Assembly: GCF_050320075.1 (NCBI RefSeq)
Contig: NZ_CP190018.1
Direction: 5' to 3' (one strand)
DNA length: 64,000 bases
From: Escherichia coli
Lineage (GTDB): Bacteria > Pseudomonadota > Gammaproteobacteria > Enterobacterales > Enterobacteriaceae
The notes under the pieces: generated by a model
The model's database searches: none
The model's input: the letters and a program-made list of their open reading frames with translations, nothing else
Told to the model about the DNA's origin: nothing
Position numbers and translations under genes: made by a program
Part shown: piece by piece, positions 16,949 to 17,040 of the stretch
Layout: each line of letters begins with the position of its first letter
Position numbering within the stretch: the first letter of the stretch is position 1

Positions 16949-17040
16949 TGTTCACACTGTTCACCTTTCATTTTTCTCTTTTAATTTCAGTGTGATAACG
17001 GGTGAATATACGGTGAAGGGTGAACAGTGGATTGTTCACC
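16949..17040. promoter_or_regulatory. cluster of P4 type-I iteron octamers (TGTTCACC/GGTGAACA), ori- or crr-like
   Basis: TGTTCACA 16949-16956, TGTTCACC 16958-16965, GGTGAACA 17019-17026 and TGTTCACC 17033-17040 (last two form an inverted pair), plus degenerate GGTGAATA and GGTGAAGG; adjacent A7T10 tract. Confidence 0.6.

What the first reader, a model, noticed from the sequence alone, without database searches (positions are those of the whole stretch)
16949..17040. Second iteron cluster with a palindromic GGTGAACA/TGTTCACC pair next to an A7T10 tract
Two direct copies (TGTTCACA, TGTTCACC) and an inverted pair GGTGAACAGTGGATTGTTCACC lie just downstream of the primase gene, beside the tract CAGAAAAAAATTTTTTTTTTC. 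The AT tract could act as a DNA-unwinding element of an origin. Which cluster is ori and which is crr cannot be decided from sequence.
Basis: partly seen in the sequence, partly recalled or inferred. Interest (0 to 1): 0.45.

Follow-up and report, generated by a model that had tools for sequence, protein, structure and literature searches.

The report
P4 satellite prophage crr site
This is the already-characterised "cis replication region" (crr) of a phage-P4-type satellite prophage sitting in the E. coli ssrA gene, present here as a single 120-bp unit instead of P4's two, so it is ordinary and identifiable from sequence alone.

Summary
Five to six copies of the octamer TGTTCACC, in both orientations, lie at 16949-17040. 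They sit beside an A7T9 tract (not A7T10), just past the terminator of a 777-aa primase-helicase gene.

The window carries an 11.7-kb P4-type satellite prophage inserted in ssrA. Bases 16925-24080 are about 98% identical to phage P4 (X51522 4291-11624). [quoted passage not shown] The other cluster, 21765-21868, matches P4's annotated origin repeat for repeat.

The alpha protein is 771/777 identical to P4 alpha, and its origin-binding domain is 100% identical to PDB 1KA8.

One difference from P4 stands out. P4 has two 120-bp crr units separated by 60 bp; this element has one. That unit is a fusion of the left part of unit 1 and the right part of unit 2. It is identical to a two-unit relative minus 181 bp.

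Roughly 10-15% of P4-type loci surveyed have a single unit, with alpha and ori intact.

The A/T tract is as conserved as the iterons. Its role as an unwinding element is untested.

The parts
16925..17044 (.). Single 120-bp crr unit (cis replication region) of a P4-type satellite prophage. It is a fusion of the left ~45 nt of P4 crr unit 1 and the right ~75 nt of P4 crr unit 2.
   Evidence: Megablast to P4 X51522/X05623, features annotated 'crr' and 'crr 120bp direct repeat'. Alignments.
16924..16939 (.). A7T9 tract at the left edge of the crr unit. It is conserved in crr units generally (consensus A6-8 [G/T] T7-9).
   Evidence: only such tract in the window. Conservation at least 0.9 in 92 distinct units. 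Homology with elements that have other left flanks begins exactly here.
16949..16965 (+). Two tandem type I iterons, TGTTCACA and TGTTCACC, 9 bp start to start.
   Evidence: They correspond to the P4-annotated 'ori type 1 repeat' at positions 24-31 and 33-40 of each crr unit.
16966..17000 (.). AT-rich inner spacer (74% A+T) between the two oppositely oriented iteron groups.
   Evidence: Partly conserved.
17001..17026 (-). Three iterons on the - strand: GGTGAATA (1 mismatch), GGTGAAGG (2 mismatches, not annotated in P4 but at least 90% conserved) and GGTGAACA (exact).
17033..17040 (+). Type I iteron TGTTCACC. With 17019-17026 it forms the inverted pair, separated by 6 bp.
   Evidence: (I17).
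17059..17083 (-). Rho-independent terminator of the alpha gene (t-alpha).
   Evidence: Annotated terminator at P4 4604-4628.
17091..19424 (-). alpha gene (primase / SF3 helicase / iteron-binding protein), 777 aa. This is the trans-acting partner of crr.
   Evidence: 771/777 identical to P4 alpha. Residues 671-770 are 100% identical to PDB 1KA8. TIGR01613 P4-family primase.
21631..21868 (.). ori (ori1), the partner site. It has three type 2 repeats (21631-21660) and six exact type I iterons (21765, 21775, 21786 on -; 21808 on +; 21851, 21861 on -).
   Evidence: Spacing and strand pattern are identical to P4 9310-9413.
16764..16786 (.). att core: a duplicated 3' end of ssrA, the end of the prophage on the crr side. 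Its partner copy is at 28467-28489 inside the tmRNA gene.
   Evidence: 22/24 match. tmRNA at 28467-28829. In island-free E. coli, 16600-16786 abuts ssrA directly.

Best explanation
The cluster at 16925-17044 is the crr (cis replication region) of a P4-type satellite prophage integrated at ssrA.

Shown here:
- It is about 98% identical to the experimentally defined crr of phage P4.
- It sits in the same place, between the att site and the alpha terminator, 4.7 kb from ori1.
- It carries the same arrangement of type I iterons (+ + - - - +).
- It is paired with an alpha protein whose iteron-binding domain is identical to P4's.

Inferred from established P4 biology, recalled from the work of Flensburg & Calendar 1987, Ziegelin et al. 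1993/1995, Tocchetti et al. 1999 and Yeo et al. 2002 (these papers could not be read here):
- After excision and circularisation, the C-terminal winged-helix domain of alpha binds the octamers at both ori1 and crr.
- The two alpha-DNA complexes interact and loop out the intervening DNA.
- This bipartite complex is needed in cis for alpha (helicase plus primase) to open and prime DNA at ori1, independently of DnaA, DnaB and DnaG.
- crr is therefore an initiator-binding helper site for the origin, not the start site.

This copy has one 120-bp unit instead of two. It is what recombination between the 21-nt block TGTTCACACTGTTCACCTTTC shared by the two units would leave. It is most likely still functional.

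The A7T9 tract is a conserved part of the unit. My best guess is that it is an intrinsically bent or easily untwisted edge that helps alpha assemble. That step is inference only.
For: Identity and synteny with P4:
- window 16925-24080 matches P4 4291-11624 at 98.4%, in two pieces split only by the crr deletion.
- the ori cluster maps one to one onto P4's origin.

The trans-acting partner:
- alpha is 771/777 identical to P4 alpha.
- the origin-binding domain is 100% identical to 1KA8.

Structure of the single unit:
- the unit is a hybrid of unit 1 and unit 2.
- the window is identical to E. coli YZLc1-3 (same ssrA/ypjA site, two units) except for a 181-bp gap bounded by the shared 21-nt block.

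Single units recur in nature:
- the inter-unit spacer is present at 1192 of about 1325 crr-alpha loci in 5426 E. coli genomes.
- 9 single-unit against 53 double-unit loci in IMG/VR.
- single-unit elements keep a 777-codon alpha ORF, and all but the most distant one (L071, a variant octamer) keep an ori cluster of 4-6 exact iterons.
- the same hybrid unit occurs with different left flanks.

Other support:
- the iterons and the A/T tract are at least 90% conserved in 92 distinct units.
- there are no DnaA or IHF consensus boxes in crr.
- a 2026 preprint describes crr as essential for P4 DNA replication.
Against: No replication experiment exists for this element.

The type element has two units. 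The statement that one unit suffices rests on my memory of Flensburg & Calendar 1987 plus the comparative data here, not on a paper I could read.

The mechanism by which crr helps ori1 has, to my knowledge, never been fully resolved, even for P4.

The role of the A/T tract is unknown.

Collapse of the two units during assembly cannot be formally excluded for this window. It is unlikely, because P4's own two units are only 82% identical and the same structure occurs in complete genomes.
Confidence: 0.88

Rival explanations
1. One reading: this cluster is (or could be) the actual origin, with the A/T tract as the DNA-unwinding element where alpha melts DNA and replication starts.
For: The A/T tract is unique in the window, at least 90% conserved across crr units and flanked by initiator-binding sites. 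The layout (A/T tract plus inverted initiator sites for an SF3 helicase) resembles the SV40 core origin (from memory).
Against: Homology assigns this cluster to crr and the other to the annotated 'origin of DNA replication'. The tract is only 16 bp. In most units it is interrupted by a G, and sequence to its left is not conserved. ori1 has its own longer AT-rich blocks (83-85% A+T). P4 replication was mapped to ori, not crr (from memory, Krevolin et al. 1985).
Confidence: 0.06
2. The single-unit crr is a decayed remnant: loss of one unit has inactivated the bipartite origin and the prophage is a cryptic, non-replicating island.
For: The P4 type element and about 85-90% of related loci have two units. 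The exact combination of ssrA-type flank and single unit occurs in only 10 of 5426 complete E. coli genomes.
Against: Everything else needed is intact and about 98% identical to P4: alpha, ori1, cos at 24081-24099, sid/delta/psu and int. Single units recur in two alpha clades and with several different flanks, always with a full-length alpha ORF and, in all but the most distant locus, an ori iteron cluster. One unit reportedly suffices (from memory).
Confidence: 0.08
3. crr acts mainly as a negative, copy-number-controlling site that titrates or 'handcuffs' alpha, as in iteron plasmids. On this view the number of units (one or two) tunes copy number.
For: The architecture is iteron-like. It pairs with ori through the same protein. 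Unit number varies naturally. From memory, Cnr protein increases alpha affinity for ori and crr to limit copy number.
Against: crr is annotated and used as a region required for replication, not an inhibitor. Nothing here tests copy number.
Confidence: 0.1
4. Chance cluster of short repeats in an AT-rich intergenic region.
For: The octamers are short, and the region is 65-71% A+T.
Against: The Poisson probability is about 1e-8. The cluster is 98% identical to a characterised element and conserved across 92 units.
Confidence: 0.001

Closest known systems
crr (cis replication region) of satellite phage P4, X51522 4291-4590 / X05623
   Same: About 98% nucleotide identity. Same position, between att and the alpha terminator. 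Same five annotated type I iterons per unit with the same spacing and orientation. Same A/T tract at the unit edge. Same distance (4.7 kb) to ori1. Near-identical alpha.
   Different: One 120-bp unit instead of two units separated by 60 bp. The unit is a unit1/unit2 hybrid. The tract is A7T9 instead of A6T8 or A6GT8. The flanking att/int module is ssrA-specific (395-aa integrase) instead of P4's leuX-specific one (440-aa integrase).
P4 ori (ori1), X51522 9086-9809
   Same: Same octamer, bound by the same alpha domain. AT-rich surroundings.
   Different: ori1 has six exact iterons at about helical spacing (10, 11, 22, 43, 10 bp) plus type 2 repeats, and it lies between orf88 and sid. That cluster is at 21631-21868 in this window, not here.
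Iteron-plasmid secondary sites (e.g. P1 incA, R6K distal iterons) and the SV40 core origin (SF3 helicase, inverted pentanucleotides, 17-bp A/T tract)
   Same: A distant cluster of initiator-binding repeats pairs with the origin through the initiator. An A/T tract lies next to inverted binding sites of an SF3 helicase (analogy from memory only).
   Different: No sequence or protein homology was tested or expected. P4 crr is required positively, in cis. Those plasmid sites are mainly inhibitory.

Membership tests
P4 crr (cis replication region) | Nucleotide homology to the experimentally defined P4 crr unit | tested here: met
   97.7-98.3% identity over 16925-19500 to X51522/X05623. The right 75 nt of the unit are identical to P4 unit 2 except 1 nt.
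P4 crr (cis replication region) | Location immediately downstream of the alpha gene and its terminator, on the att side | tested here: met
   alpha stop at 17091, terminator 17066-17083, crr 16925-17044, att core 16764-16786.
P4 crr (cis replication region) | Type I iterons (TGTTCACC and 1-mismatch variants) arranged + + / - - / + within a 120-bp unit | tested here: met
   16949+, 16958+, 17001-, 17019-, 17033+ match the five features annotated per unit in X51522.
P4 crr (cis replication region) | Two direct 120-bp units separated by 60 bp. This is the architecture of the type element. From memory it is not required for function, since one unit reportedly suffices. | tested here: not met
   Only one unit, a unit1/unit2 fusion. 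I treat this as a typical feature rather than a defining one. About 10% of E. coli loci and 9 of 62 IMG/VR loci with two, or one, recognisable units are single-unit, with alpha intact in all and an ori cluster in all but the most distant.
P4 crr (cis replication region) | Cognate alpha protein with the iteron-binding C-terminal domain encoded in cis | tested here: met
   771/777 identical to P4 alpha. Residues 671-770 are 100% identical to PDB 1KA8.
P4 crr (cis replication region) | Partner ori1 with six type I iterons about 4.5-4.8 kb away on the same element | tested here: met
   21765-21868, with a pattern identical to P4 9310-9413.
P4 crr (cis replication region) | Required in cis for alpha-dependent replication; bound by alpha | not testable with these tools
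   Needs a replication assay and EMSA or footprinting.
   Homology places the annotated origin at 21.6-21.9 kb.

The most novel reading that the evidence does not exclude
The number of crr units is a naturally variable dial. Recombination between the 21-nt iteron blocks of the two units flips P4-type satellites between two-unit and one-unit forms. Because crr pairs with ori1 through alpha, this changes origin firing or plasmid-state copy number, and so the balance between silent carriage and helper exploitation. A further possibility is that the conserved A/T tract at the unit edge is a second alpha-induced melting site. That would make P4's 'bipartite origin' resemble the A/T-tract-plus-palindrome origins of eukaryotic SF3-helicase viruses.
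Probability: 0.1. Interest if true: 0.35.

Novelty: already known. Interest (0 to 1): 0.1.

Why it matters
It matters little for discovery. The element is the textbook crr of phage P4, in a P4-type prophage that is common in E. coli: about 20% of complete genomes carry this crr type.

There are three practical points.
- The prophage (16.76-28.49 kb) looks complete and probably mobilisable.
- Natural one-unit crr variants with intact alpha and ori are a ready-made data set for the still unresolved question of what crr and its A/T tract actually do. They also help define a minimal crr for P4 cosmid and phasmid delivery vectors.

Tried and rejected
None produced the primary P4 replication papers. 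Only two vector papers mention crr. Mechanistic statements about alpha looping, the ori1 start site and 'one unit suffices' are therefore marked as memory.
- IHF and DnaA consensus boxes in 16780-17060: none found.
- Sigma-70-like promoters in 16550-17150: none found. A transcriptional role was dropped.
- The A/T tract as a terminator: rejected, because no G+C stem precedes it.
- Counting one-unit against two-unit loci directly from the two-unit P4 query did not work, because single-unit loci are joined into places covering at least 80%. I replaced it with an inter-unit spacer query and a flank-plus-unit query. The resulting figure of about 10% is still approximate, because the search modes differ.
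- PADLOC and NCBIfam gave nothing useful for the 908-aa cargo ORF.

Full report
**What is in the sequence**

Window 16900-17100 reads, from left to right:
- two tandem octamers, TGTTCACA at 16949 and TGTTCACC at 16958;
- a 35-bp spacer of 74% A+T;
- three octamers on the other strand: GGTGAATA at 17001, GGTGAAGG at 17012 and GGTGAACA at 17019;
- after 6 bp, TGTTCACC at 17033;
- a G+C hairpin with a T-run on the - strand at 17059-17083;
- the stop codon of a 777-aa ORF on the - strand, 17091-19424.

Exact TGTTCACC occurs 12 times in the window against 1.86 expected, and no shuffle reaches 12. Nine of the 12 lie in two clusters, this one and 21765-21868. Five copies with at most 1 mismatch in 92 bp has a Poisson probability of about 1e-8.

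**Genomic context**

The window is E. coli chromosome.
- ssrA (tmRNA) is at 28467-28829 on the - strand.
- A 395-aa tyrosine integrase lies at 27095-28282.
- The last 23 nt of ssrA (28467-28489) are repeated at 16764-16786.
- Left of that repeat is the terminator and 3' end of ypjA, an autotransporter gene at 11900-16603. In island-free E. coli this gene abuts ssrA directly.

Between the two att copies lies an 11.7-kb element. Bases 16925-24080 are 98.4% identical to phage P4 positions 4291-11624, that is, crr, alpha, orf106, orf151, epsilon, the cI region, ori, sid, delta, psu and the right cos end. The cos sequence ggcgaggcggggaaagcac is at 24081-24099. The C4/isrK-type RNAs of the P4 immunity region are at 20875-21160. 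This is a complete-looking P4-type satellite prophage with a different integration module (ssrA instead of leuX).

**Which cluster is which**

The GenBank records of P4 carry the experimentally derived annotation. [quoted passage not shown] It consists of two "crr 120bp direct repeat" units (4291-4410 and 4471-4590), each with five "ori type 1 repeat" octamers, followed by the alpha terminator and alpha. X05623 is titled "alpha gene and cis replication region crr".

The finding's coordinates fall under these features. The five annotated octamers per unit correspond to 16949, 16958, 17001, 17019 and 17033.

The "origin of DNA replication" of P4 (9086-9809) has three type 2 repeats and six type 1 repeats at 9310, 9320, 9331, 9353, 9396 and 9406 (strands - - - + - -). 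The window has exactly the same pattern at 21765, 21775, 21786, 21808, 21851 and 21861, with the type 2 repeats at 21631-21660.

So this cluster is crr and the other is ori.

**The trans-acting partner**

The 777-aa protein is 771/777 identical to P4 alpha. It matches the P4-family primase model TIGR01613. Residues 671-770 are 100% identical to PDB 1KA8, which I recall as the alpha origin-binding domain structure; the entry itself is titled only 'putative P4-specific DNA primase'. The protein that reads the octamers is therefore the same as in P4.

**The one real difference: one crr unit instead of two**

P4's two units are 82% identical to each other (98/120). The window has a single unit.
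- Its left part (A/T tract, CGAAAGAAC) is of the unit-1 type.
- From the iteron pair onward, its right part is identical to unit 2 except for one base.

E. coli YZLc1-3 carries a P4-type element at the same ssrA/ypjA site with two units. The window is identical to it on both sides and lacks exactly 181 bp. That gap is bounded by the 21-nt block TGTTCACACTGTTCACCTTTC, which both units share. This is the footprint of recombination or slippage between the two direct repeats. Acquisition of a pre-existing one-unit allele is an alternative.

**How common the single unit is**

In 5426 complete E. coli genomes:
- a crr-plus-alpha-end query finds 1325 places in 1080 genomes;
- a query specific for the inter-unit spacer finds 1192 places in 1004 genomes.

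So roughly 10% of loci lack the two-unit form. This is approximate, because the search modes differed.

A query spanning the ssrA-type flank plus the single unit is matched contiguously in only 10 genomes. The same hybrid unit also occurs with an unrelated left flank, in strain A38.

Among 80 IMG/VR loci found with alpha, 62 had enough downstream sequence and either two or one recognisable units. Of these, 53 have two units and 9 have one, spread over the P4 clade, an 85%-identity clade and a more distant one. The eight single-unit loci checked keep an uninterrupted 777-codon alpha ORF, and seven of them keep an upstream cluster of 4-6 exact iterons; the distant L071, whose iterons use a variant octamer, shows only one exact copy.

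This comparative pattern argues that one unit is enough. It agrees with my recollection of Flensburg & Calendar (1987), which I could not read here.

**What is conserved inside a unit**

I aligned 92 distinct units. The positions conserved at 90% or more are:
- the A-run and T-run of the tract (the centre is often G);
- the tandem CTGTTCACACTGTTCACC;
- a T5 run and AATTTCA in the spacer;
- GGTGAAT;
- CGGTGAAGGGTGAACAG, which includes the unannotated degenerate octamer;
- GATTGTTCACC.

Homology between elements with different att/int modules begins exactly at the A/T tract. The tract is therefore a selected part of crr and its left boundary. No DnaA or IHF consensus sites and no sigma-70-like promoter are present.

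**Mechanism**

Shown here: the identity, position, iteron layout, partner site and partner protein are those of P4 crr.

Inferred from the P4 literature (from memory: Ziegelin et al. 1993, 1995; Tocchetti et al. 1999; Yeo et al. 2002; Krevolin et al. 1985):
- alpha binds the type I octamers at ori1 and crr through its C-terminal winged-helix domain;
- the two complexes pair and loop the 4.7 kb between them;
- this bipartite complex is required in cis for alpha's helicase and primase to start bidirectional theta replication at ori1, without DnaA, DnaB or DnaG;
- Cnr modulates alpha's affinity for both sites.

A 2026 preprint likewise describes crr as essential for P4 DNA replication.

The A/T tract may provide a bend or an easily untwisted edge for alpha assembly. 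That is speculation.

**Rivals**

- Origin proper with an unwinding element: about 0.06.
- Inactivated remnant: about 0.08.
- Chiefly a negative copy-number site, with unit number as a dial: about 0.1. This is compatible with the main reading.
- Chance: excluded.

**Verdict**

This is a known element in a common prophage type, correctly spotted but identifiable. Novelty: already known. The one-unit hybrid form is a minor natural variant already present in public genomes. Interest is low (0.1).

Noticed in passing
window 24350-27076 (- strand): A 908-aa ORF sits between cos/psu and the integrase, the position that P4's non-essential gop/beta/cII genes occupy and, from my memory of Rousset et al. 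2022, the P4 hotspot for anti-phage systems. It has only weak AAA_16 / nSTAND1 NTPase matches (residues 179-331) and a marginal PADLOC PDC-S27 hit, with no NCBIfam family. It could be an uncharacterised STAND-type defence gene.
   Followed up: partly
window 16840-16859 and 28333-28355: The tandem octamer CGTATACC-taat-CGTATACC occurs near both ends of the prophage (22/23 match). It is conserved in other ssrA-type elements (L051 and L060). These are probably integrase arm-type binding sites, analogous to the 'attP arm sequence repeats' annotated in P4.
   Followed up: partly
window 16764-16786 and 28467-28489: These are the att core copies: the 3' end of ssrA is duplicated at the two ends of an 11.7-kb P4-type prophage. 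The integrase (27095-28282, 395 aa, PRK09692-type) differs from P4's 440-aa leuX-specific Int.
   Followed up: yes
window 21631-21868: This is the other iteron cluster. Its six exact TGTTCACC copies and three type 2 repeats have spacing identical to the annotated P4 origin. It is ori1.
   Followed up: yes
window 20875-21160 (- strand): Rfam matches to C4 antisense RNA, isrK and the c4-a1b1 targets fall in the stretch that aligns with P4's cI ORF; from memory this is the CI RNA immunity region of P4-type elements.
   Followed up: no
window 24081-24099: The sequence ggcgaggcggggaaagcac starts one base past the last base of the linear P4 record (11624 = window 24080); I recall it as the 19-nt P4/P2 cohesive end. 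If so, the prophage should still be packageable by a P2-type helper.
   Followed up: partly
window 11900-16603 (+ strand): The 1567-aa ORF next to the prophage is ypjA/ehaD, an AIDA-type autotransporter adhesin (annotation under hits). An exact TGTTCACC at 11899-11906 overlaps its start codon and another lies at 13985. Both are isolated and look like chance.
   Followed up: no
window 8808-8883 (+ strand): ARAGORN calls a tRNA with a CAT anticodon (tRNA-Met) about 3 kb upstream of ypjA. In E. coli this neighbourhood holds ileY, a CAU tRNA read as Ile after modification (from memory).
   Followed up: no
L071 (IMG/VR), downstream of alpha: A more distant P4-like element (alpha C-terminus 75% identical) has a single crr unit. 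Its iterons are TGTTCAC followed by A or T, and its A8CT7 tract sits in the same place. The architecture outlasts the exact octamer sequence.
   Followed up: no
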